From positions 74,784 through 138,783 of the forward strand of contig CAYLNG010000003.1 of the NCBI GenBank assembly GCA_964385155.1: 64,000 nucleotides of DNA, written 5' to 3'. The notes below the pieces were generated by a model. It did not search any database and was not told the DNA's origin. It saw nothing but the letters and a program-made list of their open reading frames with translations. Of the stretch, positions 8,064 through 25,153 are shown piece by piece; the first letter of the stretch is position 1; every line of letters starts with the position of its first letter. Position numbers and translations under genes: made by a program. This stretch comes from an uncultured Verrucomicrobiota bacterium. GTDB taxonomy: Bacteria; Verrucomicrobiota; Kiritimatiellia; SS1-B-03-39; UBA6053.

Positions 8064-8069
8064 AATGGG

Positions 8070-8125
8070 GCGCGGACATTCCTGTCCGCGGAAACATCCC
8101 ACCCCCAAAAAAACGGCGGGCACCA
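8070..8125. repeat. Left copy of perfect 56-bp direct repeat bracketing the BREX island (attL-like)
   Basis: gcgcggacattcctgtccgcggaaacatcccacccccaaaaaaacggcgggcacca is identical base for base to 25098-25153. It starts 7 nt after the smc stop and contains a hairpin cgcggaca/tgtccgcg (8071-8090). Confidence 0.95.
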
Positions 8126-8148: not shown

Positions 8149-8901
8149 CTATTGTTTCAATTTCAACAGCTCATCGTCCAGCCCATAGCGAACCACGTCG
8201 ATCCGGTCGCTGCGCTGGGAAACAAAATCTCCTGTCATCACAGGGAGCTGGAATGTGAAGAATGCCGGGTTGTTCAGGAGCAGCCCCAATGCGCCCTTGG
8301 CCTCCGGGGTGGCCAGGAGTGCGGACTCGAACATCAGGATGGCCAGGTTTGGCCCGGCAATGCTCACCGGAGCGGCTTTCTCATAGCAGCCTTTGGCCTC
8401 GGAATCTTTCAGGGCTCCCCAGGCGACAAAGGAGCGGATGACGAACCGGGCATAGCGGCTGACGGTTTGCCGGTCGCCGTACTGTTCCTTCAGGCGGTTG
8501 ATGATCTGGGTCTGGGTCACCTGATCCTGCAAGGCCAGCAAACGGCCGGTCTGGCGGGCCACATTGAACCAGAAGGGATAGACCGCCGAGATCATCCCCC
8601 AGTGGACCGCCAGGGCCATGGACGGGTTTTCCCTCAGAAACGCCAGCGAGGCATCCCGGAATGGAATCAACTCGGGGTCAGGAGAGACCCAGATCTTCAT
8701 CAGATTGTTGACGACAAAGGTCCGGGTCTGATCACTTCGTTCGCCTTCGGAGCCGTTGCCTTTTCGATCCGCGAGGAACTCATGCAGCTCCTGGCGGATG
8801 GTTTTGGCGTCGAGTCTCGCCAGCAGCAGATTGGCTGCTTTTTGCATCCACTCAAAACGAATCGCCTGCTTGATGCCAATGGCTTCGTGTCTTTTGCCCA
8901 T
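8149..8901 (-). CDS. brxA: BrxA-like protein (last gene of type 3 BREX operon)
   Basis: 250 aa, no catalytic motifs. Assignment is mainly positional (terminal gene after pglZ, TGATG overlap with the pglZ stop), plus a size and helical character compatible with DUF1819/BrxA. Confidence 0.55.
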   Translation of the reverse strand: MGKRHEAIGIKQAIRFEWMQKAANLLLARLDAKTIRQELHEFLADRKGNGSEGERSDQTRTFVVNNLMKIWVSPDPELIPFRDASLAFLRENPSMALAVHWGMISAVYPFWFNVARQTGRLLALQDQVTQTQIINRLKEQYGDRQTVSRYARFVIRSFVAWGALKDSEAKGCYEKAAPVSIAGPNLAILMFESALLATPEAKGALGLLLNNPAFFTFQLPVMTGDFVSQRSDRIDVVRYGLDDELLKLKQ

Positions 8902-10955
8902 CACCGTGTCCTCCTTTCAAACTTCACAAGGGGCACGATAACTTCTTCGATGGCTACACCGCCGTGACCTACGATGGCATCTCCCGGGTTCACGAATGCG
9001 TCGCGGCCACCGGCCACCAGGGGGAAATAATCTGCGGGCAACCCGACCGGCTGCCACTCGTGGGCAAACGGGAAGGCCCCAGCCACCTGAGCTCGGAGTT
9101 CCGGCGAGGGATAGACACGAACCCGCTCGCCGCGAGTTTCGGCAATAACACCTTCAGACGGGCGGCCTTTGCCTTCGCATTGGATGTTGCCGTGATCGGC
9201 CGTCAGCCAGACATCGTAGCCGTATTCCAGCAGTTGGCCGACCAGCGCAACCAGAAACCCACCCTCGCACCATTGCTTGATCTGGTTGTGCATCCCGGCC
9301 GAACCGAGTTGCATGCCGTGCATGATCTTGTCGACCTTGTCCACGACCAGCCCCACCACCTTGGTCTTCCCGGGGTGGATTGCGGAGTCGAGGACGCCCG
9401 CAGCATCGCCGTCGCCAAGACCTCGCTGGTAGGCGACATCCAGCCGGGACAGACCATGGCCTTCCCAGAACTGCTTCCAGAGTTTCTCTTCGCTGTTGGT
9501 CGAGTTAATGGATGACGGGAAATAGAGCGGCGGCTTACCGGAGAAGATCGACTGCCGCGATACCGAGGTCAGCGTCGGAATCCAGGCGAAGGTCGCGGAT
9601 TCGCGCATGACCAGATTGGCGTCCTGCTTTTGCAGAAGCTGGCGAATGGTTACCCACTGATCCAAGGCCAGGCCGTCAACCACAATCAACGCGGCACGGC
9701 TGCTACCGGAGTCCTCGATATCCCGAGCCAGGCGGCGCGGCACATGGTGGAGCATGGCAGGATTAGTCGGCGGCAAGTTGATCAGACTGGAGTAGTGGTC
9801 GGCCAGCCAAGCGGCAAAGGTCGCGTTCAGTGCATCGCCGATTTCCCTGAGCCGGGTCTGATACTCGGTGCTGTTGCCACAATGAACCAGCGAAGAAAGT
9901 TCGGCCCATTTCAACGCAAAGGCGGTCCAGTCCGAGTAACGCGCTTCCGCAGTGGGCAGTTCCTTCTCGACAAGGCCAAACAAGCGAGAGATCCGCAGCT
10001 CGTCATCGTCCACGCCGGAGGTGGCGATGCCGCTTCGGACCCAGGACCCGGCATCCACTTCAATGCCTTTGGCCTCGACAGGGGTGAGTTTCCCCTCCAG
10101 GAACAGGTTGTCGATGTAGACCTTGATGTCCTGATGGTCGAACGGCAGGCGATCAGGGCCGGGATAACGAAAGTGCGGGGTGCGAGGTCCGTAGTGCGTT
10201 TCGGGTTCGCGAACTGTGGGTTCCGCACAGCGCACTCCGCACTTCGCACTCAAGAAGAGCGGCCAGCGTTCCTGCAAAAAGGCGAAGAAGGCCTCATCGT
10301 CCGGAACGATCTCGGAAAGCGGCCAGGCTTTGAACCCATCATGCCCTTTGAGAACCTGGATAAGCCGCTCAGCCAGCATCAGCGGGATCTGTAGCTTCCC
10401 ATAGTGCAGGCGCAGCAATGCGCGAAGCAGCTCCACCTCGCCCCCAATTAGTTCCGCCGCAATGCCGAACACATGACGGAGAATGAAATCCTTGGTGGCG
10501 TTGTCGCCCATGCGATCCGGCGGCGACTTGCGCTGGGCCTCAAAAAGCGAATCCAGCAAGCTCCTGTCGAGCTTTTCAATGACCGGATAGCTCAGGTTGG
10601 GAAAGAGATCCCCCAAGTTGAATGAAAGCTTGCGGCCCGCCTGGAGTAGGTCGTAAGGCAAAGATTCCAGCTCCGCATCCTGCAAGCGGAGGACTACCAC
10701 CAGATCGGTGTGCTCACCCCGGTCCCAGATCGAACGGTACTTTGACTCATAGGCGTATCTGAATTCGACCGGATCACTGAACTCGATCAGGTCGAACCCG
10801 CGCCCGCGAAGCTCCAATGCCAGCTTCTCCTCGGTCAGCAGACAATCCGGGTCCGCGACCAGGGTCAGCTTGCTGACGTTGGGCACAAAGTCGTTCAGGA
10901 TGGCGTCTCGCCAGGAGGGAGAGTGCGAAGTGCGTTGTGCGGAGTGCGTTGTCAT
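8901..10955 (-). CDS. pglZ: BREX alkaline-phosphatase-superfamily protein PglZ
   Basis: 684 aa. C-terminal half has a PglZ-type pattern: AALIVVDGLALDQW, IPTLTSVSRQSIFSG, VDKIMHG, WLTADHGN. ATGA overlap with the upstream four-helix-bundle gene. Confidence 0.85.
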   Translation of the reverse strand: MTTHSAQRTSHSPSWRDAILNDFVPNVSKLTLVADPDCLLTEEKLALELRGRGFDLIEFSDPVEFRYAYESKYRSIWDRGEHTDLVVVLRLQDAELESLPYDLLQAGRKLSFNLGDLFPNLSYPVIEKLDRSLLDSLFEAQRKSPPDRMGDNATKDFILRHVFGIAAELIGGEVELLRALLRLHYGKLQIPLMLAERLIQVLKGHDGFKAWPLSEIVPDDEAFFAFLQERWPLFLSAKCGVRCAEPTVREPETHYGPRTPHFRYPGPDRLPFDHQDIKVYIDNLFLEGKLTPVEAKGIEVDAGSWVRSGIATSGVDDDELRISRLFGLVEKELPTAEARYSDWTAFALKWAELSSLVHCGNSTEYQTRLREIGDALNATFAAWLADHYSSLINLPPTNPAMLHHVPRRLARDIEDSGSSRAALIVVDGLALDQWVTIRQLLQKQDANLVMRESATFAWIPTLTSVSRQSIFSGKPPLYFPSSINSTNSEEKLWKQFWEGHGLSRLDVAYQRGLGDGDAAGVLDSAIHPGKTKVVGLVVDKVDKIMHGMQLGSAGMHNQIKQWCEGGFLVALVGQLLEYGYDVWLTADHGNIQCEGKGRPSEGVIAETRGERVRVYPSPELRAQVAGAFPFAHEWQPVGLPADYFPLVAGGRDAFVNPGDAIVGHGGVAIEEVIVPLVKFERRTR
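10223..10251 (-). repeat. CGCAC-rich motif, copy 1 (inside pglZ)
   Basis: ccgcacagcgcactccgcacttcgcactc. The 21-nt core cgcactccgcacttcgcactc (10231-10251) is identical to 11337-11357. The 29-nt version matches 11329-11357 with 2 mismatches. Confidence 0.9.
10921..10948 (+). repeat. CGCAC-rich motif, copy 2 (inverted orientation, first codons of pglZ)
   Basis: gagtgcgaagtgcgttgtgcggagtgcg contains the reverse complement of the core (gagtgcgaagtgcg + gcggagtgcg) with a 4-nt insertion. It lies 4 nt from the stop of the four-helix-bundle gene. Confidence 0.85.
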
Positions 10956-11326
10956 TCCCTTGTACTCCTATCCAATGACGAACGCAGGCCGCCTATTGCC
11001 CGGCTCAGGCCGATGCATTTCTCATAAATCTTTGAGCAATCGGAATCGGCAACATAGCCCAAGGACCTGGCCAATTGAATCTGGCTGCGGACTTCTGCGC
11101 ATGATCCTCGAGCAAAAGAAAGAAACTGCTTGAATTCTTGCCTGCTGTAGCGCTCGAAGCCTTCAGCAATGTTGGACATCACCGAAACGGATGCTCGCTG
11201 AATCTGATCCCGAAGCCCCCAATCTTTGGAAAACTCTCCATCCCTTGTCAGGTCATAAATTGCCACCGATAGGTCATGAGCCATTTGCCAGACCTGCAAG
11301 TCCTCGAATCGTTCGACCTTGCTCAT
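10952..11326 (-). CDS. Four-helix-bundle protein (23S rRNA intervening-sequence protein family)
   Basis: MSKVERFEDLQVWQMAHDLSVAIYDLT...DQIQRASVSVMSNIAEGFERYSRQEFKQFLSFARGSCAEVRSQIQLA is the characteristic signature of this family. ATGA overlaps at both ends (brxHII stop and pglZ start). Confidence 0.85.
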   Translation of the reverse strand: MSKVERFEDLQVWQMAHDLSVAIYDLTRDGEFSKDWGLRDQIQRASVSVMSNIAEGFERYSRQEFKQFLSFARGSCAEVRSQIQLARSLGYVADSDCSKIYEKCIGLSRAIGGLRSSLDRSTRE

Positions 11327-14232
11327 CACCGCACCTCGCACTCCGCACTTCGCACTCGCAACGCGAGCAGTGGACGGATTTCCGGTACGATCTGCCGCGC
11401 TGATTGCAGTTCATCCCTCCACTCCGCTTCCTCGGCATTACAGCGAGCCAGTCGGAATTGACGCACTTCGGGCAGCCCCACCCGTTCGATGGCCTTGCGC
11501 CGAGAGGCAAAGGCTGTTATGCCGCGTTCCTCTTCCCTGTTCACCGAAGAGAGGTGCGCGTGTTGCAATGTGTCGAACAGCTCCTGTCCGGCCTGTTCGG
11601 CAGCAATCTGCAACCGCTCATGGGCGATGATGGATTCGTCCTGGCCGAGGGTGGCCTGCACATGGGCTTCCGCTGTCTGCAGCGCATCCCAGATATGCCG
11701 GGCCGTGGGCAGAAACAGTTTGCCTTCCTCGCTCAGGAAAACACTGACATAGCCCCGCCGCACCATGGGAATGCGCAGGAGCTGTGTCTTCTGGTGCATC
11801 CCGGCCTGAAGGCGTATCTCAAAGAGCCCCCAGAGTCCGGAGATGCTGGCTGGCAATCCGCTCACGCTTACGCAAGGCAAAGGCTGGCCAGCCGCGATCT
11901 GCGGCAGGTTCAAGGCGAGCCCACGGACGCGGCTGTTTTCAAGATTGAGCAGGGTTGCGTCGGTTAGACGATCCGCTTCCCGAGCGCTGAATACGGCTTT
12001 GCGGTGTTCCTGGCCATCCGGCCAATTCAGATCCCACCAGGAGCGCTTGCGACTGGCCATACCGCCATGGGAGTTGAGGTAACCGACCGTCATCCGTTCC
12101 ACCCAGTGGGGCAGCGGATGCGAGCGCAGACGCTCAGCCGCCTGCACATCCGGCTCTTCGGAGATGCCATAGATGGCGGAGGCCTCGCGCACCTGCTGAA
12201 TTTCATCGCGAAGTCGAGCCACCGTGTGATCGACGGAGGTTTCGATACCGTCAGGATTGAGGATGGCGGAGGCGAACACATCCTCGAACAACTCACCGGC
12301 CTGGGCCGAGTCGAGCACGTCGCCGGTCTTGTCGATGCCGAACTCGTCGAAGATCACCGAGAGCTTCTGCTCCAGAACTTCGCGGACCCGGAACTCGACT
12401 GAATCCTCAAATACGAAATTGATCGCCTGTACGGTTTTGGGCTGCCCGATACGATCCACGCGGCCGATTCGCTGTTCCAGCCGCATCGGGTTCCAGGGGA
12501 TGTCGTAGTTGATGATGACATGGGCGAACTGCAGGTTCAGGCCCTCACCACCCGCGTCGGTGGAAACCAGCACACGGTGCGATTTGCGGAAGGCATCCTG
12601 GGCCTGCTTGCGTTCCTCCATATCCATGGAGCCGTTCAGGGTGACGACCGAGATGCCCCGGGCTTCCAGAAACTCCTTCAGCATCTGCTGGGTGGGTACG
12701 AACTCAGTGAAGATCAACACCTTCAGGTCCGGCTCGTTTTCCTCGGCCTGCAGCTCGTAGATCCACTCGATCAACGCCTCGGCCTTGGCGTCCGGTCCAG
12801 CTTGTTCGCAGCGAACCGCCGCATCGAGCAGAGCTTGAACCTCGGATTTTTCATTCTGGTGGGCGGCCCGCATCTCCGCCAAAGCCTCCAGCTGCTCCTG
12901 CCCATCCATGTCTTCCCATTCTTCAGAGGAGAACCACAGATTCACAGCGATAGACGCGGATTCAGAATCCCCCCCCCCCATCTGTGTTAATCTGTGTCCA
13001 TCTGTGGTTTCTTCCAAAACCGCGAGACGCCGTTCCAGCGTTGTGCGGATCGCCCGAGTGCTGGAGACCACCAGGCGCTGCATCAGGATCATCAGAAAAC
13101 CGATATGGCGCTTCTTCTCGCGCAGGGCCTGGTTGTAGCCCTCGCGCACATAGTCGGTCACCGCCTCGTAGAGAAGCTGCTGCAGGTGATGACGGTGGGT
13201 CCAGGCCACCGGGGCCATCTGCGTGCGCCGGGGTTTGAAGAGCGGCTTGCCGTCGGTATCGATGGCCTTGCGCTTTTCGGTGCGGATGACATACGGGGCC
13301 ACCCGCTCACGGGAGACGCTGTCCATATCCGGAAAGGCGTCATCATCCAGCAGGTTCATCAGGCGATGAAAGGCATCGGTCTTCCCCTGGTGGGGAGTCG
13401 CCGAAAGGAGCAGCACATAGGGCGCGGCTTCCGCCAGCCCCTTGCCGAGCTTGTAGCGGGCGACCTGATCGGTACTGCCACCCAGGCGGTGCGCTTCGTC
13501 CACCACTACCAGGTCCCAACCGGCAGTAATCAGATCCTCGAACCGGCTGCGGTTGTAGTCGGCAACGCGCTCGGCGGTCCAGCCGCGCCGCTTGTCCATG
13601 GGCTTGACCGAATCCAGGGAGACGATGACCTGATCGAACATCGACCAGGCTGAGTTCCGGTGGTCCGCCCCTGGTGCCAGGCGCTGCAAGGTGCCGATGT
13701 CGTCGCCCAGCACAAGCTGGAACTGCTCGTTGAAATGGGTCTGCATTTCCGCAACCCACTGAGTGGCGATGCCTTTGGGAGAGACGACCAGGATTCGCCG
13801 AACCAGCCCGCGCAGTTTGAGCTCACGCATGACCAGACCGGCCTCGATCGTCTTACCGAGACCCACCTCGTCGGCCAGCAGGTAGCGCACGCGGTCGCCG
13901 GAGATGGCCCGGGACAAGGCGTGGATCTGGTGCGGTAGCGGAATGACGTTGGACTCCATGGGAGCCAGCAGCACATGACCGTCGGTAGCGCTGGTGGAGC
14001 CTTCAAGCACCTCGGCCACCTTGGCTGCAGCGGCCACATAGGCAATGCGTCCGGCCTCGATCTCCGGCTGCAGGTCGGCACTCAGCGGCCGCAAAGCGGA
14101 GCGGGGCACGCGCACCACCGCGTCCTGGTTCGGCAACCAGACACGGCAAACCGTTTGCCCCCACAAGGTCTGTTCTTCGATGACCTTGCAGGCGCTGTTA
14201 TGAACGGTGCTGTATTGCCAAAGCGACTCCAT
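11326..14232 (-). CDS. brxHII: SNF2-family helicase, BrxHII-like
   Basis: 968 aa. Motifs: LLADEVGLGKT (motif I), VVVDEAHRLGG (DEAH box), LLLSATPHQG, STDAGGEGLNLQ and QRIGRVDRIGQ (motif VI). Its position between pglXI and pglZ matches type 3 BREX. Confidence 0.85.
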   Translation of the reverse strand: MESLWQYSTVHNSACKVIEEQTLWGQTVCRVWLPNQDAVVRVPRSALRPLSADLQPEIEAGRIAYVAAAAKVAEVLEGSTSATDGHVLLAPMESNVIPLPHQIHALSRAISGDRVRYLLADEVGLGKTIEAGLVMRELKLRGLVRRILVVSPKGIATQWVAEMQTHFNEQFQLVLGDDIGTLQRLAPGADHRNSAWSMFDQVIVSLDSVKPMDKRRGWTAERVADYNRSRFEDLITAGWDLVVVDEAHRLGGSTDQVARYKLGKGLAEAAPYVLLLSATPHQGKTDAFHRLMNLLDDDAFPDMDSVSRERVAPYVIRTEKRKAIDTDGKPLFKPRRTQMAPVAWTHRHHLQQLLYEAVTDYVREGYNQALREKKRHIGFLMILMQRLVVSSTRAIRTTLERRLAVLEETTDGHRLTQMGGGDSESASIAVNLWFSSEEWEDMDGQEQLEALAEMRAAHQNEKSEVQALLDAAVRCEQAGPDAKAEALIEWIYELQAEENEPDLKVLIFTEFVPTQQMLKEFLEARGISVVTLNGSMDMEERKQAQDAFRKSHRVLVSTDAGGEGLNLQFAHVIINYDIPWNPMRLEQRIGRVDRIGQPKTVQAINFVFEDSVEFRVREVLEQKLSVIFDEFGIDKTGDVLDSAQAGELFEDVFASAILNPDGIETSVDHTVARLRDEIQQVREASAIYGISEEPDVQAAERLRSHPLPHWVERMTVGYLNSHGGMASRKRSWWDLNWPDGQEHRKAVFSAREADRLTDATLLNLENSRVRGLALNLPQIAAGQPLPCVSVSGLPASISGLWGLFEIRLQAGMHQKTQLLRIPMVRRGYVSVFLSEEGKLFLPTARHIWDALQTAEAHVQATLGQDESIIAHERLQIAAEQAGQELFDTLQHAHLSSVNREEERGITAFASRRKAIERVGLPEVRQFRLARCNAEEAEWRDELQSARQIVPEIRPLLALRVRSAECEVR
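11329..11357 (-). repeat. CGCAC-rich motif, copy 3 (last codons of brxHII, just upstream of the four-helix-bundle start)
   Basis: ccgcacctcgcactccgcacttcgcactc encodes the helicase C-terminal SAECEVR. It is inverted relative to copy 2, so the pair brackets the four-helix-bundle ORF. Confidence 0.9.
12969..13009. repeat. Homopolymer C11 (G11 on the coding strand) followed by three 10-bp tandem repeats, inside brxHII
   Basis: C run at 12969-12979, then atctgtgtta / atctgtgtcc / atctgtggtt (12980-13009). A 10-bp inverted partner aaccacagat lies at 12932-12941. The region encodes ...TTDGHRLTQMGGGDSE... Confidence 0.9.
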
Positions 14233-14239
14233 CCGCTAA

Positions 14240-16864
14240 TTACCCTCTACCTTGATCTGTTGCCTGTTGAATCTGAATTGCAGGTGCAATTCGAGTTCGG
14301 ATTTCGTTGTAAACAGCGATGTCGACGCCCTCGGCTACCTCCAGCGACACGGCCAAACCATACGCGACAGGGCTCTGGAATATTCCAGCGTCCTCACGGC
14401 AGTTCACTTTGATTTCGATAACTTCCCCGTCGATGAACGGCACCGCCCTCTGGCCTTCGAAAACTTCGTGCTGGACTGTTCCGCGCCGCACTGCTCGCCA
14501 GCCGTCAGTCCCGCTGCAGCTTTCTTTTCTATCTTTGGCTGGCACAACTCCGCCTACCTCGAACCACAGGCTTGATGTTCTGTACTTTTGCGTTCCTGCA
14601 GAAATTGGTGAAAGCCATGCCATGGTTACGGTCAGGCGTCGCCATTCAGGCCGGGAGCCCAGAGAAGGCGGCAGCGGCAATCTGAAAACATGGGCTTCAC
14701 CATCCAAAAGTTGCCCAAAGCCCAACAAGGAGGCTCTCTGCTCCGTACAATCCAGAACGCGATCTACCTGTGGAACGCCATACCCCATCCATCTGCTAAC
14801 AAGTCCACTGATCTGTCGATTATTCTCTGGCGTGCGCAGAAGTTCGCCGATTTGAGTGCCAATATCTCCCCACGCGCATCCATGAACCAGCATGGCCTTC
14901 ACCAGGGGCGCTTCACATGCTCGCGCATCAACATCTGTAGCCTGCTCAGCGAATATTTGCTGAAGCGAGTCGTAACAAATACCAGCAGCACGACTCATCA
15001 ATGCAGCGGCATTGCTTGTTCCACAGGAATAGGCAATACCTTCGAGATTCCCAGATTGCCGGGCAGGAATAGCGGTTTTGTTTCCTGGCGGAGTATTACG
15101 AATTGATGGTTCGACCGGCTTTATGACGTAGTTATCCCGCCGTGAAGACCGGAGATCTTCCTGGTACAGGACCCTGCCTCCCGGGAAGACGATATCCGGC
15201 TTAATCGCCCTTCGATAACCACTACCGAACGCTGAAACCGGGCTCGGCAAGAACTGCAGAAACGGGTTGAATCTCTTATTGACCACCCCAAAGTGAGATG
15301 AATCGTATTGAACTGAACCAACCGTCAGCCCATTGATACTCTCGGCTGGAGAAAGAAGCTTGCGATTCCTGGCATCAGAAAATAGTGCTTTAACAACGGC
15401 TACTTCTTGTTCTTGTGGATCTGAGGATTCAAATTCGGTCCGCGAAATCCCGAGTTGTATAGCGTCTGACTGATTCCCGGCGCTTACAACAAAAAGCACA
15501 CCATAGGTGAGGCTGAGCCAATCCAGTAGCCTTGCTACAGGACTCATGGACTGCAGGAACTTTCTGTAGGGATCACCAATCGATAAATTGATCACCCTTA
15601 CAGAGGGGGCTACCGGACCTTCTGTACCATCACCTTCAAATAGCCTTTTCACAGATCGGTGAATCAGGTCCACTAGCAGGACGTCATCCGGAATGTGTTC
15701 ACGGCGAGGTGTCCGAAAATCATTTGGAATCGGCTGCATAATCGGGCGCACATACACTGGTCGCCCTAATGGCCGCAGCCCATCATTAAGGTCGCCGTGG
15801 ACGATCAGAGACGCCATTGATGTGCCATGCACGCGCTCATTGGCGTTATAGCTGTTTTCTACATCGTCTGGGTCGTCGACGATTAGTCTTCCATTCAGAA
15901 GTCGATGATTCGCCAATGGGAGCCCATCCAAGACCGCAATTACCGGCTCTCCATCCGGCAGCGAATGTTCTTCAAGGTCGGAATAGACTGCCTCGTCTTC
16001 GAGAAGGCCATCGCCAGCAAGCATCTGCCCGACAGGTCGAAAGAACATGACGCTGTCACATTTCACCAGCTCCGTATTCGGATTATCGACAACGGCCTGG
16101 ATGGCATTGGCTGGCAACTCGGCCAAAATGCCATGGTAGGCAATACCATCATGCAGTGACTCAGCCAAAACCTGCCCGCCAAGCTGCTGAATCAGGTTTG
16201 TAACGATTGCTGAGCCTTGCCGTCTCTTCTCTTCACTGTTTCGATACCATAGCTCGACTTCAAACCGGATAAGCCTGCCGCCGTCATGCTCCAGATCTTC
16301 TCGCCAGGCATCAATCACCCCGGTTTCCAGAAGCCTATCTTTGACGTCCCACCGGCGAATGTCCTTCAAGCACAGAAAGACATCACGAAACTTTGTGAGC
16401 CCGCCAGCGAATTTCTGTTTTGGGTCGTCCTGGTCCGTATAGCGACGCCACATGGAGAGCATCTCATCGAGAGCTCTCTGATTGGTCATAATCATATACA
16501 GGCGGCCACTCAGCGCTTTCTCCGGATGTTTTTCATCGAAGAATTCCTGATCAGGACCTATTTCATCAATCTCAAATTCGCCCATCCACTCAAAGCCATC
16601 GATACGCTTCACAGCATTGGCGAAATCTTCCACGCTCCCGATGGTTTCCATTACAAGTACCTGTTCAGGGTCTATGCCTGTCACAGCTTGCTGGAACTCG
16701 ATGTTTCGGGCGCGAACAGCTTCTTGTAGCTGAGTAAATTTTGGAGCCAGCCTTTCCCCTTGCCGAAAATGTGTTGGCAGATGCGGACGACCACCTCCGC
16801 CGCCAAGATTCGACTTGGAAGTAACTTCAGGCGTCGGGAAAAGGAGTAGTGGGCGTTCAGGCAT
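14240..16864 (-). CDS. S8 (subtilisin-like) serine peptidase with large N-terminal domain of unknown function; IetS-like
   Basis: 874 aa. Asp-His-Ser order typical of subtilases: PVIAVLDGLP (D), VHGTSMASLIVHGD (H), SAGNQSD, YSCGTSNAAALMSRAAG (S). About 300 aa at the N-terminus have no recognisable motif. 8-nt overlap with the upstream AAA+ gene. Confidence 0.85.
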   Translation of the reverse strand: MPERPLLLFPTPEVTSKSNLGGGGGRPHLPTHFRQGERLAPKFTQLQEAVRARNIEFQQAVTGIDPEQVLVMETIGSVEDFANAVKRIDGFEWMGEFEIDEIGPDQEFFDEKHPEKALSGRLYMIMTNQRALDEMLSMWRRYTDQDDPKQKFAGGLTKFRDVFLCLKDIRRWDVKDRLLETGVIDAWREDLEHDGGRLIRFEVELWYRNSEEKRRQGSAIVTNLIQQLGGQVLAESLHDGIAYHGILAELPANAIQAVVDNPNTELVKCDSVMFFRPVGQMLAGDGLLEDEAVYSDLEEHSLPDGEPVIAVLDGLPLANHRLLNGRLIVDDPDDVENSYNANERVHGTSMASLIVHGDLNDGLRPLGRPVYVRPIMQPIPNDFRTPRREHIPDDVLLVDLIHRSVKRLFEGDGTEGPVAPSVRVINLSIGDPYRKFLQSMSPVARLLDWLSLTYGVLFVVSAGNQSDAIQLGISRTEFESSDPQEQEVAVVKALFSDARNRKLLSPAESINGLTVGSVQYDSSHFGVVNKRFNPFLQFLPSPVSAFGSGYRRAIKPDIVFPGGRVLYQEDLRSSRRDNYVIKPVEPSIRNTPPGNKTAIPARQSGNLEGIAYSCGTSNAAALMSRAAGICYDSLQQIFAEQATDVDARACEAPLVKAMLVHGCAWGDIGTQIGELLRTPENNRQISGLVSRWMGYGVPQVDRVLDCTEQRASLLGFGQLLDGEAHVFRLPLPPSLGSRPEWRRLTVTMAWLSPISAGTQKYRTSSLWFEVGGVVPAKDRKESCSGTDGWRAVRRGTVQHEVFEGQRAVPFIDGEVIEIKVNCREDAGIFQSPVAYGLAVSLEVAEGVDIAVYNEIRTRIAPAIQIQQATDQGRG

Positions 16865-17864
16865 CCTTCACCTCCGGTTCGTCCTGTTGAGCCACGGTGA
16901 CTGATCGGGCGGACCAGCTCTGGAGGGTTTTGGACACGATATCCTTCATGTCTGCATTCGGTTGTTCGAGCACATACTGGCGGAACACAGTTGTGCCGAA
17001 CTCTTCGACTTCCGCGAAATTTGATCCCAGAAGGCGTTTTGCCAAAGTGCCAGGCGCGTATCCCAAAGAGATTTTGATCCGGCGTTCGAACTTTTCGAAC
17101 CACTCAGTCAGACGAGCCCGGGTCGGGCCAGGCAGCGTCATGCGCACCTGGAAGCGTCGCCATACCGCACGATCCAGCAGTTCGGCATGATTGGTTGCCC
17201 CGATGACCATGACATGGCTAGGCAGGTTGTCGATCTGCATCAACAGCGAACTCACCACGCGCTTGATCTCACCGGTCTCGTGCAGATCGCCGCGTTCCTT
17301 GCCGAGGGTTTCAAACTCGTCAAAAAAGAGGACACATTTCCGAGTAGACGCGTACTCGAACAGCTTTTTCAGTCGGACAGCGGTCTCGCCCAAGTAGGTG
17401 CCGACGACGCTCTCGTAGCGAACCACAAGCAGTGGGACCACCAGTGCTTCTGCAATGGCTTCGGCCAAGGATGTCTTGCCATTACCCGGCGGTCCGATGA
17501 GGAGCACGCGGTTGCGGGGCTCCAGGTTGTAAGACCTAAGCAGGTCGGTCCGATGTTGTTCCTGAATCAGACTCTGACAAATCTGCAGCACCTCATCCGG
17601 GAGGATGAGATCGGACAGCTTTCGCTGGGGCATAACCTCATGGAACAGGTTGCCCATGCGTTGATCCAGCATAGGACCACCGCCATTGGTAACTGGGCGT
17701 TCTACCGGCGCGGCGGTGAGTAACTCCTCGAGTTTCTCGGCCAGCACCTTGTGCTGCTTGGTTCGCTCCTCGGCGATGATCGCCTCGACGACCTTTCTAA
17801 AGCTGGCCTTGTCGCCCCGTATGCCGGATTGGACAAGGCGAATAAGTAAATCCGCTCTTGCCAT
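16857..17864 (-). CDS. AAA+ ATPase; IetA-like partner of the S8 peptidase
   Basis: 335 aa from ATG 17864. Motifs: LLIGPPGNGKTSLAEAIA (Walker A), CVLFFDEFETL (Walker B), VMVIGATNH (sensor 1), AVWRRF (Arg finger region). TAATG overlap with the pglXI stop. Confidence 0.85.
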   Translation of the reverse strand: MARADLLIRLVQSGIRGDKASFRKVVEAIIAEERTKQHKVLAEKLEELLTAAPVERPVTNGGGPMLDQRMGNLFHEVMPQRKLSDLILPDEVLQICQSLIQEQHRTDLLRSYNLEPRNRVLLIGPPGNGKTSLAEAIAEALVVPLLVVRYESVVGTYLGETAVRLKKLFEYASTRKCVLFFDEFETLGKERGDLHETGEIKRVVSSLLMQIDNLPSHVMVIGATNHAELLDRAVWRRFQVRMTLPGPTRARLTEWFEKFERRIKISLGYAPGTLAKRLLGSNFAEVEEFGTTVFRQYVLEQPNADMKDIVSKTLQSWSARSVTVAQQDEPEVKDA

Positions 17865-20563
17865 TATTCGCCTCCCATTCTTGTTACTGCCTGGTCGTAC
17901 CACATGAGCAGTTTGGGATCTTCTTCCAGGACGTTGTTGGGAATCTTTTCAGCCACTGCTACGATTACATTGTAATCTCTCTCTTGCCAGGCCTTCTTGA
18001 AACCGGCTCGAACAGCTTCTAGCCGGAAAACTTTGAGATTCTTCTTGGCACCTTTATATTCCTCGAACTCCTTCAGCAACGCCCTTTCGCGTAATTTTTC
18101 GAGATCACCAGCCTTATTTGGATCGGGCAAGTACCAGCGATCACGAGCTTTCGCAATGAGCCCTGGATCATCTTTGGGGCGGTTGCGTAACTCCGGCCAG
18201 TTAGTCGACAGATAACTGTGAATTTGGCTCGGAACTTCACCACGCCCTTCGAATCGCAAGAAGTTCTGCTCTAGCAACGTAGACAGTTCAAGAGCTTTCT
18301 CATTCTTGCTCCACCCACCAATTTCCCTCAAAAACTGTGGGTGGAGATCCCGGAAGGTCTGCGGTTTATCACGGAGAAGGCTTCTCAACCATTCAATTGC
18401 CGAAGATTCATCAGAAACAAACAGAGTACCTTGAATCAACCGTTCAACGGTTAAGCGTTTTTTGTCATACTCTGCAGCTTGTTCGGGAAGAAAAAACATC
18501 CCATCACGCTCAGCAAACCTCTGTCTAATACCGAGCTGGAATTCTTGATTAGAAATAGGTACGGGATATCCATTCCTAACATAGTAGGCCACCATTTGAT
18601 CGAACAATATTCTGGAGTCCCTTTCGGTGAGATACGCAACATCACTCCCTAACTTCTTGAAAGTGGGGAGATGAGAAAGATAGTTACGAACAAACTCCCA
18701 AACACCTCTCTCTTCTGAGGCAGATGCGTTGAATTTCTCAAGGAATTGAGTTGAAGGCTTGTAGGCAGAGATAATCAAATCCTGGACAACAGCCCCCGGC
18801 CTTATATCGGCAAGTATTGTTGTAGATCCTTTATCAAGCTTGCATACCTGAGCAACCACGAAACCTGCTTCGGATATCGCATTTTGTATTAGGTTCCAGA
18901 CCGAAGCTTGCGTGTTGTGAAACTCTACAGTCAGCCATTTTCCTGGCCTTAATACTCTGTAACACTCTTTAAACGCTCGAAGCATTAACCGACCGTAATC
19001 TTCAAACTCCTTATGCTTTGTTTCATCGATTACTGCTTCTGGTGAATTGTTAGATCTTACCTTTAACCATCCCTCGAGAATCAAGTTCATTTCGCTGTAT
19101 ATTATGTTTGCACCAAAAGGAGGATCGGTATAGATGTAATCAATGCTCTGGTCCACAATCTGATCAAGCTTCGTGGCTGACTGCGTTGTTACAAGATGGC
19201 CTTCATGGTTTCGTGGCTTTTCACTTTCGGCATCAATGAATTTTTTTATCTTTCTTCTGAGAGAGTCGTAGATATTTTTTTCCATTCGAACGATTGGCAT
19301 ATACAGGTTTCCTGACATGCCTCCACCGCCACCGAAATATCCTTGACGCTCAGATATGACAGTGAAAATTGACGTTAAGCACGATCTAATAGCATTACGT
19401 ATGGACGCGTCGTTGATTTCTGCCATACGTTGCCACAGGTCGGCAAAGACCAATCGGTTTCTTTCTGATAGAAACTTGCTAACGTCTGTAATTGCTTTGT
19501 CGCCTAACTGAGCGAGCTTTGCTGAGTATCCAGCTGGGTCTATTTCGTCAGATGGAATCCACAAAGGTGTATCTTGTAGGGCAGATATAACTTTGCGCAC
19601 AACATCTCGATCGAAATCGTTTGGCTCTCGGTTAATCCGATTTCTTCCAGACGCAGCATTTACCCAAGCAAGAGATTTTTTCTTTCCATCAGTTGTAAGT
19701 ACCCGTTCAACTTTCCTTACGTTTAGTTCAGCACCACATGATGGACACTTGAATTGCTTTTTAGTCTGGACCTTGTTGCCATGGTGAATAACGCCGTGCG
19801 GGAAAAACGGAAATTCATGAACACACTCAGGGCAATTAAACACATCCGTCCATACGTAATAGTTAACACTTGTACGTCTTCCGGCATCTTCTGTTTCATA
19901 CACCCAGCTAAATTTTTTCTCGGACTGCCTTAATAAATTCTCAATTTCTTTTTTGAATAAGTGTTTGTCGAAACTAGACGTATTAACGCTAGAGATAAAT
20001 GTCGCTATTGGTGAAAGATCGTTGACAATAACATTTCTTCCGCACTCTCTGGCGGCTACGCCCGTCATTCCGGTCCCACAGAAAATGTCCAGTACCAAAT
20101 CACCTGGGGAGGTGTAGTAGGTAATCAAATCCTTGATAATCTCTGGAGGCACTTTGGTATGATAAGGATGAAATGAATAAACAGGATGCCGACCTGTCGC
20201 GGCAAGATCGCCCGAATATGGTTCCGAAACTACTTCCGTTGAGGAAGGATCTCCATATATCGACAAAAATTCCCCAATCCACGGATTAGGACAAGCGGTG
20301 TAATACGGCGGATCGCTCAGGTTCAGGATGTCCTCGTCGCTGCCGATAGGAAAGCCTTCGATCTTGCGGAACTCCGGGTCCTGCAGCTTCTTGCGCAGCT
20401 CCTCGGTGAAATGGGCGCGGCGGGCCTCATCGTTCTCGAAGGTCATACCGAGACAAGTCACCGGGCCGGAGGGCTTCTGCGGCTCTTCAAGCAGCGAGTC
20501 GAACAAACTGGTTTCTTTCATCTTCATATTCCTTTTTGGCGTCTTGTTTCTCAGCTTGGTCAC
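17864..20563 (-). CDS. pglXI: BREX type 3 DNA methyltransferase PglXI-like (N6/N4 amino-methyltransferase)
   Basis: 899 aa. VLDIFCGTGMTGVAA (SAM-binding FxGxG) and IYTDPPFGANI (DPPF/DPPY catalytic motif), with a Cys-rich CPEC...CPSC insertion between them. The true start may be ATG 20527 or 20521 (MKMKETSLF). Confidence 0.8.
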   Translation of the reverse strand: MTKLRNKTPKRNMKMKETSLFDSLLEEPQKPSGPVTCLGMTFENDEARRAHFTEELRKKLQDPEFRKIEGFPIGSDEDILNLSDPPYYTACPNPWIGEFLSIYGDPSSTEVVSEPYSGDLAATGRHPVYSFHPYHTKVPPEIIKDLITYYTSPGDLVLDIFCGTGMTGVAARECGRNVIVNDLSPIATFISSVNTSSFDKHLFKKEIENLLRQSEKKFSWVYETEDAGRRTSVNYYVWTDVFNCPECVHEFPFFPHGVIHHGNKVQTKKQFKCPSCGAELNVRKVERVLTTDGKKKSLAWVNAASGRNRINREPNDFDRDVVRKVISALQDTPLWIPSDEIDPAGYSAKLAQLGDKAITDVSKFLSERNRLVFADLWQRMAEINDASIRNAIRSCLTSIFTVISERQGYFGGGGGMSGNLYMPIVRMEKNIYDSLRRKIKKFIDAESEKPRNHEGHLVTTQSATKLDQIVDQSIDYIYTDPPFGANIIYSEMNLILEGWLKVRSNNSPEAVIDETKHKEFEDYGRLMLRAFKECYRVLRPGKWLTVEFHNTQASVWNLIQNAISEAGFVVAQVCKLDKGSTTILADIRPGAVVQDLIISAYKPSTQFLEKFNASASEERGVWEFVRNYLSHLPTFKKLGSDVAYLTERDSRILFDQMVAYYVRNGYPVPISNQEFQLGIRQRFAERDGMFFLPEQAAEYDKKRLTVERLIQGTLFVSDESSAIEWLRSLLRDKPQTFRDLHPQFLREIGGWSKNEKALELSTLLEQNFLRFEGRGEVPSQIHSYLSTNWPELRNRPKDDPGLIAKARDRWYLPDPNKAGDLEKLRERALLKEFEEYKGAKKNLKVFRLEAVRAGFKKAWQERDYNVIVAVAEKIPNNVLEEDPKLLMWYDQAVTRMGGE

Positions 20564-20611
20564 TTTATGGGTGACTAAGCTCGGCGGAGTTGGTCACTCG
20601 CTTAGTCACTC

Positions 20612-24855
<4,244 letters not shown>

Positions 24856-25097
24856 TCTCCTGTAATACGGTAAGCCCTTCACAAATAAAGCCTAAAGGTA
24901 TGCCTCGATCTAAGGTAACCTGATCGGTCGAAATTCTTAGAACTCTTTTCCTGAAACTTAAGCAAAACCAAATAGCATAAACAATCACATCTATTTTTAC
25001 ATTAACCATTTATAAATTCAATATACCCAGACAGATCCTCACAATCATCCTCCAACTCTACATCCCCCCCCAAAAAAAATGAAGCACTCAAACCGGA

Positions 25098-25153
25098 GCG
25101 CGGACATTCCTGTCCGCGGAAACATCCCACCCCCAAAAAAACGGCGGGCACCA
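25098..25153. repeat. Right copy of perfect 56-bp direct repeat (attR-like)
   Basis: Identical to 8070-8125. Only here does the sequence continue (ggcccgccg) to complete the katG terminator hairpin. Confidence 0.95.

What the first reader, a model, noticed from the sequence alone, without database searches (positions are those of the whole stretch)
14240..17864. AAA+ ATPase / S8 subtilase pair (IetAS-like) nested between pglXI and brxHII
A 335-aa AAA+ ATPase (Walker A GPPGNGKT, Walker B FFDEFE) overlaps by 8 nt an 874-aa protein. That protein has a complete subtilase triad (VLDGLP / HGTSMA / GTSNAAA) and an N-terminal domain of about 300 aa of unknown function. An ATPase-plus-S8-protease pair is the architecture of the ietAS anti-phage system (Gao et al. 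2020). Here it is translationally coupled inside a BREX operon. Two inferences follow: (a) a second defence system is stacked within BREX and co-regulated with it; or (b) the pair is a split functional analogue of BrxL (the AAA+/Lon-like protease of type 1 BREX, absent from type 3), acting as an integral BREX component. The substrate and trigger of the protease are unknown.
Basis: partly seen in the sequence, partly recalled or inferred. Interest (0 to 1): 0.8.

Follow-up and report, generated by a model that had tools for sequence, protein, structure and literature searches.

The report
IetAS-type cassette inside BREX operon
The ATPase/protease gene pair is a real, intact member of the known IetAS toxin–antitoxin-like anti-phage family, sitting as a swappable two-gene cassette in a cargo slot of a type 3 BREX operon; this is a known kind of "defence inside defence" arrangement, not a missing BREX component.

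Summary
A 335-aa AAA ATPase (17864-16857, minus strand) overlaps by 8 nt an 874-aa S8 peptidase (16864-14240). The pair lies between PglXI and BrxHII of a complete type 3 BREX operon and is translationally coupled on both sides. PADLOC matches both proteins over their full length to IetA and IetS. All ATPase motifs and the Asp/His/Asn/Ser catalytic residues are invariant or nearly so across homologues.

Reading (a), a second system stacked inside BREX, is supported. Reading (b), a split BrxL analogue, is not.
- In BREX backbones 90-94% identical to this one, exactly this segment is replaced by other defence cargo.
- About half of the sampled type 3 BREX loci have nothing at this junction, and only about 10% have IetAS.
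- The same cassette, 89-94% identical from start codon to near the stop codon, also sits inside type I R-M operons, Hma systems and unrelated contexts.

The pair is a divergent IetAS subfamily that falls below NCBIfam equivalog cut-offs. Embedding of defence systems in BREX, R-M and Hma operons is already published, so this is a new member of a known kind. Whether the cassette talks to the neighbouring SNF2 helicase, as in the published ietHAS system, remains open.

The parts
16857..17864 (-). ietA: 335-aa single-module classical AAA ATPase, the presumed antitoxin/regulator. Walker A K130 is encoded at about 17477-17475.
   Evidence: PADLOC IetA PDLC04232, E 2.1e-152, residues 1-326 of a 330-position profile. 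Pfam AAA, E 9.5e-31. Closest solved relatives are p97/CDC48/NVL D2 domains, E about 1e-38. Walker A/B, Y-L-G pore loop, sensor-1 and RR fingers are conserved in 67-74 of 74 homologues.
14240..16864 (-). ietS: 874-aa cytoplasmic S8 subtilase, the presumed toxin/effector. Layout: N-terminal alpha/beta region (aa 1-~300), subtilase core (aa ~303-700), C-terminal beta-sandwich (aa ~706-845). Catalytic codons: D313 15928-15926, H346 15829-15827, N464 15475-15473, S617 15016-15014.
   Evidence: PADLOC IetS PDLC04233, E=0, 1097 bits, residues 1-867. Pfam Peptidase_S8, residues 306-661. Triad and oxyanion Asn are invariant or nearly so. AlphaFold2 model with pLDDT 92.6 and pTM 0.94. Best fold matches are pro-Tk-SP, PCSK9, KP-43 and Kex2, E down to 1.9e-17.
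17862..17876 (-). Upstream cassette edge: Shine-Dalgarno GGGAGG (17876-17871) inside the PglXI 3' end. The PglXI stop TAA (17866-17864) overlaps the ietA ATG (17864-17862) by 1 nt.
   Evidence: Sequence read. The same stop/start arrangement (distance 0) occurs in 10 related loci. Other cargos start 0-6 nt after the PglXI stop. Backbone homology to L081, L082 and L104 ends at 17865/17866.
16857..16864 (-). 8-nt ietA/ietS overlap (ATGCCTGA), which gives translational coupling.
14230..14242 (-). Downstream cassette edge: ietS stop TAA (14242-14240), 7-nt spacer, brxHII ATG (14232-14230).
   Evidence: Backbone homology to L081, L082 and L104 resumes at 14222/14220.
17864..20563 (-). Host gene pglXI (type 3 BREX methyltransferase). 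Its central part (about 20275-18610) is a low-GC (0.41-0.45) swapped segment, probably the target-recognition domain.
   Evidence: PADLOC PglXI, E=0. GC profile. Nucleotide homology to otherwise 94-95% identical operons is lost between 20275 and about 18610.
11326..14232 (-). Host gene brxHII (SNF2-family helicase), immediately downstream of the cassette.
   Evidence: PADLOC BrxHI|BrxHII, E=0. Pfam SNF2-rel_dom and Helicase_C.
8149..24882 (-). Whole type 3 BREX operon that hosts the cassette: brxF 24882-24340, brxC 24343-20612, pglXI, ietA, ietS, brxHII, a four-helix-bundle gene 11341-10952, pglZ 10955-8901, brxA 8904-8149.

Best explanation
The segment is an autonomous two-gene cassette of the IetAS family. 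It occupies a cargo slot, the PglXI-BrxHII junction, of a type 3 BREX operon, and it is transcribed and translated with that operon.

Proposed mechanism (inferred from family knowledge, not shown here):
- IetS is a cytoplasmic subtilase held inactive, probably in a zymogen-like state by its own N-terminal pro-domain-like region.
- IetA is a hexameric classical AAA unfoldase with an intact substrate-threading pore loop. It continuously restrains IetS, acting as the antitoxin.
- A phage-encoded protein or process disturbs that restraint. IetS then cleaves cellular or phage proteins, and the infected cell is arrested or killed (abortive infection).

Sitting inside BREX gives co-expression and a second, mechanistically unrelated layer of defence. 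That layer would act on phages that escape BREX by carrying the methylation mark or by inhibiting BREX.

Shown here: gene integrity, the motifs, the fold, the coupling to BREX genes, and the cassette behaviour. Inferred: the toxin/antitoxin roles, the trigger and the substrates.
For: Identity.
- Full-length PADLOC IetA and IetS hits.
- Intact and conserved catalytic and ATPase motifs.
- A confident subtilase model with pro-domain-bearing subtilases as best fold matches.
- IetA belongs to the classical AAA clade.

Cassette behaviour.
1. Three BREX operons (L081, L082, L104) share 90-94% nucleotide identity with this backbone. Homology stops at 17865/6 and resumes at 14220/2. Between those points they carry an NsnB-like ABC ATPase or HEC-03 plus an RNA ligase instead.
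2. Among 29 BrxHII-anchored type 3 BREX loci, 14 have no insert at this junction, 3 have IetAS and 12 have other inserts. Those annotated include PDC-S68, Ppl-like, SLFN-AlbA2 and a CBASS cyclase.
3. IetAS in BREX (L005, L017), in type I R-M (L012, L041) and elsewhere (L011) share 89-94% nucleotide identity. The shared stretch runs only from about 7 nt before the ietA ATG to about 30 nt before the ietS stop.
4. Genomic contexts are interleaved on the IetS tree.
5. In 23 of 48 well-flanked loci the cassette lies outside these three systems. Across all 44 loci classed as 'other' (short contigs included), many of the neighbours are housekeeping genes.
6. The cassette GC differs from both flanks.

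Co-expression. Overlapping or 7-nt junctions and no strand-matched promoter-like or terminator-like sites.

Family biology from papers.
- IetS is a toxin and IetA an antitoxin, an ietA mutant could not be cloned, and protease activity is required for defence (PMC13069673).
- ietAS acts by abortive infection and is triggered by phage SPbeta yosG (bioRxiv 10.1101/2022.08.27.505566).
- Defence systems are often embedded in BREX, type I R-M and Hma operons in the same orientation (bioRxiv 10.1101/2024.01.29.577857).
Against: - No member of this subfamily has been tested. It fails the NCBIfam equivalog thresholds of the validated IetAS, and only the protease core of IetS aligns to those models. The phenotype is therefore transferred across a sizeable distance.
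- At least 27 of 48 IetS-anchored loci (56%) lie outside BREX-3 and type I R-M, so the embedding bias is partial. Even so, the bias towards the methylase|helicase junction of DNA-modification systems is strong: 25 of 48 well-flanked loci, and 17 of 23 in the window's own subclade. That could reflect functional dependence on the host system rather than mere hitch-hiking.
- A published E. coli variant (ietHAS) needs an adjacent SNF2 helicase (PMC13069673). The cassette here abuts an SNF2 helicase.
- How a cassette with no flanking repeats or mobility genes moves is unexplained.
Confidence: 0.75

Rival explanations
1. Guard or coupled effector. The cassette does not sense phage on its own. It is restrained by, or signals through, the host DNA-modification system, most plausibly the adjacent SNF2/SF2 helicase (BrxHII here, HsdR in type I R-M, HmaA in Hma). 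It fires when that system is blocked by a phage anti-restriction protein. This would parallel PrrC inside EcoprrI, or the helicase-dependent ietHAS system.
For: - 25 of 48 well-flanked loci sit in BREX-3, type I R-M or Hma, nearly always at the junction between the methylase/specificity gene and the helicase/translocase gene.
- The window's own subclade (IetS at least 60% identical) is embedded in 17 of 23 cases.
- ietS ends 7 nt before brxHII.
- In E. coli ietHAS, a DrmD-like SNF2 helicase is essential for defence, and its mutation makes the system toxic (PMC13069673).
- E. coli ietAS co-localises non-randomly with type III R-M (bioRxiv 10.1101/2022.08.21.504612).
- PrrC is the precedent for an embedded guard (discussed in bioRxiv 10.1101/2024.01.29.577857).
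Against: - The junction is a general cargo slot that also holds unrelated systems. The position therefore reflects the host operon, not IetAS.
- Near-identical cassettes move between BREX, type I R-M and contexts without any helicase.
- BrxHII is 90-92% identical whether the neighbouring cargo is this IetS allele, a 68%-identical allele or no IetAS at all. There is no sign of co-adaptation.
- L009 keeps IetAS although BrxHII is deleted.
Confidence: 0.13
2. Addiction module. The pair acts mainly as a toxin-antitoxin stabiliser that keeps the BREX island, or itself, from being lost. Phage defence would be secondary or absent.
For: - IetAS was first described as a plasmid-stabilising toxin-antitoxin pair of pTiC58 (as cited in PMC13069673).
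- IetA homologues occur on 610 plasmid records, 394 of them conjugative, and IetS homologues on 79.
- The cassette behaves as a selfish, ORF-exact mobile unit.
Against: - Related systems protect against phage when cloned alone, according to the papers cited above.
- The slot it occupies is otherwise filled with defence cargo.
- The two roles are not mutually exclusive.
Confidence: 0.08
3. Integral BREX component. The pair is a split analogue of BrxL that supplies the ATPase/protease function missing from type 3 BREX.
For: - Type 3 BREX lacks BrxL (PMC12839542).
- The pair combines an ATPase and a protease and is translationally coupled to BREX genes.
Against: - No similarity to BrxL models was found.
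- The ATPase clade and the protease fold both differ from BrxL (PMC12839542).
- 26 of 29 sampled type 3 BREX loci lack the pair, including operons 90-94% identical to this one.
- The same cassette works in non-BREX contexts.
- The literature assigns the BrxL-like DNA-unwinding role in type 3 to BrxHII (PMC12839542).
Confidence: 0.02

Closest known systems
IetAS (IetA AAA ATPase + IetS S8 peptidase; pTiC58 toxin-antitoxin pair; anti-phage system of Gao et al. 2020; named IteA/IteS in NCBIfam)
   Same: The two-gene order is A then S on one strand with overlapping ORFs. IetA is homologous over its full length: PADLOC PDLC02196, E 8e-78, and NCBIfam IteA, E 9e-64, covering residues 36-317. The S8 protease has an intact triad. 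PADLOC files both proteins as IetA and IetS through subfamily models PDLC04232 and PDLC04233.
   Different: Scores are far below NCBIfam equivalog cut-offs (216 against 510 bits; 78 against 900 bits). Only the protease core (aa 419-664) aligns to validated-type IetS models, so the N- and C-terminal domains differ. This subfamily is untested. More than half of its well-flanked occurrences are embedded in DNA-modification operons.
ietHAS (Liu-DS4; IetAS plus a DrmD-like SNF2 helicase, PMC13069673)
   Same: An IetAS pair sits directly next to an SNF2-family helicase gene. BrxHII's next-best PADLOC hits are DrmD and HmaA. The helicase-IetA-IetS order itself is seen in L022, L027 and L070.
   Different: Here the helicase is downstream, not upstream, and it is a core BREX gene present whether or not IetAS is there. 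Orthology of BrxHII to IetH could not be tested because no sequence was available.
Defence systems embedded in BREX / type I R-M / Hma operons ('guilt-by-embedding', bioRxiv 10.1101/2024.01.29.577857; BrxU in pEFER BREX; auxiliary effectors in PMC12839542)
   Same: The cargo has the same orientation as its host operon, lies between core genes of a DNA-modification system, and is interchangeable with HEC/PDC candidates.
   Different: Those papers do not name IetAS in their main text. The specific PglXI-BrxHII slot, its exact edges and its roughly 50% occupancy in type 3 BREX are worked out here.
PrrC anticodon nuclease inside the EcoprrI type I R-M locus
   Same: An abortive-infection effector is encoded between the modification/specificity genes and the hsdR-type gene. 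In 12-15 loci this cassette occupies that very position in type I R-M operons.
   Different: PrrC is a nuclease that is physically masked by its host enzyme and is almost always embedded. IetAS carries its own regulator (IetA) and is often free-standing.
BrxL (type 1 BREX)
   Same: Only the broad description 'ATPase plus protease-like domain in a BREX operon' is shared.
   Different: BrxL is one polypeptide with an MCM-family ATPase and a Lon (S16) domain that is mostly inactive (PMC12839542). No sequence similarity was found. IetAS is facultative in type 3 BREX.

Membership tests
IetAS (broad family as modelled in PADLOC-DB 2.0) | AAA ATPase matching an IetA profile over its full length | tested here: met
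   PDLC04232, E 2.1e-152, residues 1-326 against profile positions 1-325 of 330. Older models PDLC02196 and PDLC02195 also hit, at 8e-78 and 2e-65.
IetAS (broad family as modelled in PADLOC-DB 2.0) | S8 peptidase matching an IetS profile over its full length | tested here: met
   PDLC04233, E=0, 1097 bits, residues 1-867 against profile positions 1-852 of 855. Older IetS models (PDLC02197-02202) match only the protease core.
IetAS (broad family as modelled in PADLOC-DB 2.0) | The two genes are adjacent and co-oriented, with the ATPase first | tested here: met
   8-nt overlap on the minus strand. The same order occurs in all 74 loci where both genes are visible.
IetAS (broad family as modelled in PADLOC-DB 2.0) | Catalytically competent ATPase and protease (Walker A/B; Asp-His-Ser triad) | tested here: met
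   Motif residues are conserved in 66-74 of 74 IetA homologues, and in 68/68 and 133-134/134 IetS homologues. The subtilase fold is modelled at pLDDT 92.6 and matches solved subtilases.
Validated IetAS (NCBIfam equivalogs IteA_antiphage NF042959 and IteS_antiphage NF042956) | Score at or above the curated equivalog cut-off | tested here: not met
   IteA 215.8 bits against a cut-off of 510. IteS 77.9 bits against a cut-off of 900, with only residues 419-664 aligned.
IetAS | IetS toxic without IetA; the pair protects against phage | not testable with these tools
   Known only for other members (PMC13069673; bioRxiv 10.1101/2022.08.27.505566).
Type 3 BREX (host operon) | BrxF, BrxC/PglY, PglXI, BrxHII, PglZ and BrxA in one operon | tested here: met
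   All six have top PADLOC hits at E from 5e-67 down to 0. The genes are contiguous on the minus strand, 24882-8149.
BrxL-like integral BREX component | Homology to BrxL (MCM-type AAA+ plus Lon domain) | tested here: not met
   No BrxL model appears among the PADLOC hits at E<=0.001. The only Lon hit is a 19-bit Walker-A match. IetA is closest to the p97/NVL classical clade.
BrxL-like integral BREX component | Conserved presence across the BREX subtype | tested here: not met
   3 of 29 BrxHII-anchored type 3 BREX loci carry it, 14 have an empty junction and 12 carry other inserts.
ietHAS | SNF2 (DrmD-like) helicase gene adjacent to ietAS and required for function | tested here: inconclusive
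   An SNF2 helicase (BrxHII) starts 7 nt after ietS. However, it is a core BREX gene, lies downstream, and shows no co-variation with the IetS allele. No IetH sequence was obtainable, and the functional requirement cannot be tested here.
PrrC-type embedded guard | Effector encoded between core genes of a restriction/modification-type system | tested here: met
   The position is at the methylase|helicase junction in BREX-3 (17 loci), type I R-M (15 loci) and Hma (2 loci).
PrrC-type embedded guard | Effector kept latent by the host enzyme and released by a phage anti-restriction factor | not testable with these tools
   There is indirect evidence against obligate dependence: near-identical cassettes occur without any host system.

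The most novel reading that the evidence does not exclude
This IetAS subfamily may be specialised to live at the methylase|helicase junction of DNA-modification defence systems (type 3 BREX, type I R-M, Hma). In that reading it uses the neighbouring SNF2/SF2 translocase as its sensor or safety catch. The protease would then fire when a phage anti-restriction protein disables the host system. That would be a portable, protease-based 'guard' module, generalising both PrrC/EcoprrI and the helicase dependence reported for ietHAS.
Probability: 0.12. Interest if true: 0.7.

Novelty: new member of a known kind. Interest (0 to 1): 0.35.

Why it matters
IetAS is a validated anti-phage and toxin-antitoxin family whose mechanism, trigger and substrates are still unknown. 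Type 3 BREX is the least studied BREX type.

This locus offers three things:
- a clean natural example of layered immunity, with a methylation-based system carrying an abortive-infection cassette in one transcript;
- a precisely defined cargo slot, with edges known to the nucleotide, that could be used to swap or discover defence cargo;
- a high-confidence model of an untested IetS subfamily that suggests zymogen-like control by an AAA unfoldase.

None of this overturns current ideas, because embedding of defences in BREX, R-M and Hma operons is already described. The value is as a well-characterised instance and as a test bed for asking whether embedded cassettes talk to their host system.

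Tried and rejected
- First AlphaFold2 run. It used a shallow, closely related alignment (A1, 25 sequences) and gave pLDDT 43. I discarded it. A 134-sequence alignment of 50%-identity representatives gave pLDDT 92.6.
- Sequence and profile searches of IetS against PDB chains. These found nothing meaningful even at E<=10. Only the fold search recovered subtilases.
- Triad geometry and the position of the pro-domain-like region over the active site. Neither could be measured because model coordinates are not exposed.
- Retrieving the ietHAS (Liu-DS4) sequences. No supplement is held for that paper, so IetH could not be compared with BrxHII.
- A Klebsiella plasmid homologue. It proved to be a fragmented copy in a conjugative-transfer region and was uninformative.
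- Identifying the source organism. An exact look-up of KatG returned no record. The exact IetS exists only on a 17-kb metagenome contig that is the BREX island itself. There are no tRNA genes in the window.
- Promoter and terminator scan. The counts were no higher than in shuffled sequence, and no strand-matched site lies in or beside the cassette.
- A localised hypervariable, specificity-determining patch in IetS. I rejected this because divergence between alleles is spread over nearly the whole protein, apart from the last ~75 residues.
- The BrxL-analogue reading. Rejected for the reasons given under rivals.

Full report
**1. What is in the sequence**

On the minus strand the window carries one tight operon:

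| Gene | Coordinates |
|---|---|
| brxF | 24882-24340 |
| brxC/pglY | 24343-20612 |
| pglXI | 20563-17864 |
| AAA ATPase gene | 17864-16857 (335 aa) |
| S8 peptidase gene | 16864-14240 (874 aa) |
| brxHII | 14232-11326 |
| 129-aa four-helix-bundle gene | 11341-10952 |
| pglZ | 10955-8901 |
| brxA | 8904-8149 |

PADLOC profiles match all six type 3 BREX proteins at E from 5e-67 down to 0. They match the inserted pair as IetA (PDLC04232, 2.1e-152) and IetS (PDLC04233, E=0, 1097 bits), both over their full length. Pfam sees AAA and Peptidase_S8.

The junctions were read directly.
- The pglXI stop TAA shares one base with the ietA ATG, and a GGGAGG ribosome-binding site lies 6 nt upstream.
- ietA and ietS overlap by 8 nt.
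- brxHII starts 7 nt after the ietS stop.

No promoter-like or terminator-like site on that strand lies in or beside the pair. An independent gene call on an identical public contig gives the same 335-aa and 874-aa products.

**2. The proteins are intact and under constraint**

I aligned 74 IetA homologues recovered from related loci. The following residues are present in 67-74 sequences: Walker A Lys130, Walker B Asp182/Glu183, pore-loop-1 Tyr-Leu-Gly (157-159), sensor-1 Asn225 and the Arg236/Arg237 pair.

IetA's closest solved relatives are D2-type modules of p97/CDC48, NVL and AFG2, at E about 1e-38. That places it among classical-clade protein unfoldases. This is an inference by homology.

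In IetS, Asp313, His346, the oxyanion Asn464 and Ser617 are invariant in 68 locus-derived homologues. They are present in 133-134 of 134 representatives of 50%-identity clusters.

dN/dS against relatives is 0.03-0.06 for ietA, and 0.06-0.10 for ietS where synonymous sites are not saturated.

**3. Structure of IetS**

A first model from a shallow alignment was useless, with pLDDT 43. With 134 diverse sequences the model reaches pLDDT 92.6 and pTM 0.94.

Foldseek against the PDB returns subtilases that carry a pro-domain and a C-terminal beta-domain as the best matches:
- pro-Tk-SP from Thermococcus (E 1.9e-17)
- PCSK9
- KP-43
- Kex2

Weaker matches to ACT-type alpha/beta domains and to jelly-roll capsid proteins fit the N-terminal subdomains and the C-terminal beta-sandwich. 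I treat these as tentative.

The secondary-structure map has four parts:
- alpha/beta units up to about residue 280
- a lower-confidence linker (281-300, pLDDT 62-74)
- the subtilase core (about 303-700)
- a beta-sandwich (about 706-845)

I infer, but could not verify, a zymogen-like arrangement in which the N-terminal region gates the active site. Model coordinates are not exposed. The N-terminus shows no signal-peptide-like hydrophobic stretch, so the enzyme is probably cytoplasmic. This comes from direct reading of the sequence.

**4. Which IetAS is this?**

IetA is clearly homologous over its length to the validated type (NCBIfam IteA, E 9e-64, residues 36-317). However, its score of 216 bits is below the equivalog cut-off of 510. 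IetS aligns to the validated-type model only over the protease core (419-664), at 78 bits against a cut-off of 900. The older PADLOC IetS models behave the same way.

The pair is thus a divergent subfamily. PADLOC already files it under IetAS, but I found no experiment on it.

The subfamily is large. There are 1052 clusters at 50% identity with E<=1e-30, and more than 4000 clusters at 90% identity with E<=1e-10. Full-length relatives at 30-39% identity sit next to an 'ATP-binding protein' gene on rhizobial, actinobacterial and other plasmids.

**5. Is it part of BREX or a passenger?**

Three independent lines say passenger.

(i) *Replacement.* I anchored a metagenome scan on BrxHII, which is unbiased with respect to IetAS. 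It gave 29 type 3 BREX loci in which the PglXI-BrxHII junction is visible.
- 14 loci have no insert. Thirteen have 33-87 nt between the tblastn matches (16-36 nt between stop and start in the eight read through), and one has 262 nt.
- 3 loci (two distinct) have IetAS.
- 12 loci carry other inserts. Those annotated are an NsnB-like AAA_15/DUF3696 ATPase, HEC-03A/B plus an RNA ligase, PDC-S68 (RecD-like), a Ppl-like ABC ATPase, an SLFN-AlbA2 protein, a CBASS-type cyclase with a small partner, and PDC-M36A.

L081, L082 and L104 have backbones 90-94% identical in nucleotides to the window. Their homology stops at 17865/17866 and resumes at 14222/14220, which are exactly the cassette edges. Every cargo starts 0-6 nt after the pglXI stop, re-using the ribosome-binding site inside the pglXI 3' end.

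(ii) *Mobility.* An IetS-anchored scan of one genome per species gave 80 loci.
- 17 are in type 3 BREX, always at this same junction.
- 15 are in type I R-M operons, typically in the order hsdM-hsdS-ietA-ietS-(x)-hsdR.
- 2 are in Hma systems (hmaA-ietAS-hmaB).
- 44 are elsewhere, many of them next to housekeeping genes.

Of the 48 loci with at least 3 kb on both sides, 25 (52%) are embedded in one of these DNA-modification systems.

BREX-embedded cassettes (L005, L017), type I R-M-embedded cassettes (L012, L041) and a cassette in another context (L011) share 89-94% nucleotide identity. The shared stretch runs from about 7 nt before the ietA start to about 30 nt before the ietS stop, and there is no homology outside it. 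On an IetS tree the contexts are interleaved.

(iii) *Composition.* The cassette has GC of about 0.53. The BREX backbone has about 0.61 and the pglXI core about 0.43.

**6. The BrxL-analogue idea**

Neither protein hits a BrxL model, and only a 19-bit Walker-A match to Lon appears. According to PMC12839542, BrxL has an MCM-family ATPase and a Lon domain that is inactive in most variants. The same paper states that BrxL is absent from type 3, where BrxHII presumably supplies the DNA-unwinding role. Combined with the facultative presence shown above, reading (b) is not supported.

**7. How it most likely works**

*From the literature on other family members.*
- IetS is the toxin and IetA the antitoxin, protease activity is needed for defence, and an ietA mutant could not be constructed (PMC13069673, which cites the pTiC58 work and Gao et al. 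2020).
- A Bacillus ietAS acts by abortive infection and is triggered by the SPbeta yosG product (bioRxiv 10.1101/2022.08.27.505566).

*From this analysis.* IetA has everything needed to thread a polypeptide. IetS looks like a pro-subtilase.

*My best model.* IetA hexamers keep IetS harmless in an ATP-dependent way. A phage factor breaks that control. IetS then degrades cellular or phage proteins and aborts the infection. Co-transcription with BREX supplies a second layer against phages that evade BREX. The steps after 'intact ATPase and protease, co-expressed with BREX' are inferred.

**8. What remains open**

The strong bias of this subclade towards the methylase|helicase junction is notable: 17 of 23 loci with IetS at least 60% identical are embedded. 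So is the report that an E. coli variant, ietHAS, needs an adjacent DrmD-like SNF2 helicase for defence and for keeping toxicity in check (PMC13069673). E. coli ietAS also co-localises non-randomly with type III R-M (bioRxiv 10.1101/2022.08.21.504612). Together these leave room for functional coupling to BrxHII or to the host system, in the manner of PrrC/EcoprrI.

Four points argue against obligate coupling.
- The slot is generic.
- The cassette also occurs without any helicase.
- BrxHII is equally conserved next to different IetS alleles or next to no IetAS.
- L009 retains IetAS after losing BrxHII.

I put the coupled or guard reading at about 0.13.

**9. Novelty**

Embedding of known and new defence systems in Hma, BREX, DISARM and type I R-M operons, in the same orientation, is the subject of bioRxiv 10.1101/2024.01.29.577857. 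Auxiliary effectors inside BREX loci are catalogued in PMC12839542. Neither paper names IetAS in its main text, and I found no paper describing IetAS inside BREX. The arrangement is nonetheless an instance of a described phenomenon that involves a described family. I rate it a new member of a known kind, of moderate-to-low interest.

**10. Caveats**

- Genes in related loci were called with a simple longest-ORF procedure, and contexts were assigned by clustering plus annotation of representatives.
- Only the best 80 loci per scan were returned, and many come from metagenome bins.
- The occupancy percentages are therefore rough.
- The source organism of the window was not identified.

Noticed in passing
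window 8062-8125 and 25090-25153: A 64-nt direct repeat (61/64 identical) occurs only twice in the window, where none is expected by chance. The two copies are spaced 17,028 nt apart. They bracket exactly the whole BREX operon plus its AT-rich 207-nt leader. The repeat contains a hairpin (GCGCGGACA-TTCC-TGTCCGCG) followed by an A-run, and it lies between convergent smc and katG. It looks like a duplicated target or att-like site of a 17-kb BREX island, yet the island has no integrase or transposase. The matching public contig (L161, 17,032 nt) is the island plus one repeat copy.
   Followed up: partly
window ~18610-20275 (central pglXI): The middle of pglXI has GC of 0.41-0.45 against 0.61 for the backbone. 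It has no nucleotide homology to operons that are otherwise 94-95% identical, and PglXI is only about 50% identical at protein level while BrxC is 95-98% identical. This looks like a swapped target-recognition module, implying frequent changes of BREX specificity.
   Followed up: partly
window 10952-11341 (minus strand): A second embedded gene encodes a 129-aa four-helix-bundle protein (Pfam 23S_rRNA_IVP, E 2e-36; TIGR02436). It lies between brxHII and pglZ and overlaps both. In relatives a homologue (44-48% identical) sits instead between brxC and pglXI (L017, L029, L081), or is absent, so it is another mobile passenger of unknown role.
   Followed up: partly
L015, L028, L029, L049, L059, L093, L096, L097 (brxC-pglXI gap): Related type 3 BREX operons have a second variable slot between brxC and pglXI, with gaps of 1-5.5 kb. 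In L028, L029 and L059 it holds an SLFN-AlbA2/HATPase_c_4/Fic-like_C protein of about 595 aa. The slot is empty in the window (48 nt).
   Followed up: no
ietA versus ietS across L005, L007, L009, L017, L059 and the window: In operons whose BrxC is 95-98% identical to the window's, IetA is 96-99% identical (dS 0.28-0.45). IetS is only 68-70% identical, with saturated synonymous sites. The divergence covers nearly the whole protein except the last ~75 residues. One near-invariant IetA therefore partners very different IetS alleles, which is unusual for a toxin-antitoxin pair and suggests allele swapping of ietS alone.
   Followed up: partly
L005, L009, L017, L059, L081, L082 versus window 8156-24855: The BREX backbone is 90-95% identical in nucleotides in bins assigned to Sterolibacteriaceae, Pseudomonadales, Porticoccaceae and Desulfobulbus. 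This indicates recent horizontal spread of the whole operon across classes and phyla, if the bin assignments are right.
   Followed up: no
L004:8831-8998 and L010:5833-5901: Short remnants of the PglXI C-terminus (58-65% identical) lie just upstream of ietA in loci with no BREX genes. This suggests that these free-standing cassettes descend from BREX-embedded ones.
   Followed up: no
L009:12574-12800: In this BREX operon brxHII is almost entirely deleted (6% left), while ietAS, pglZ and brxA remain.
   Followed up: no
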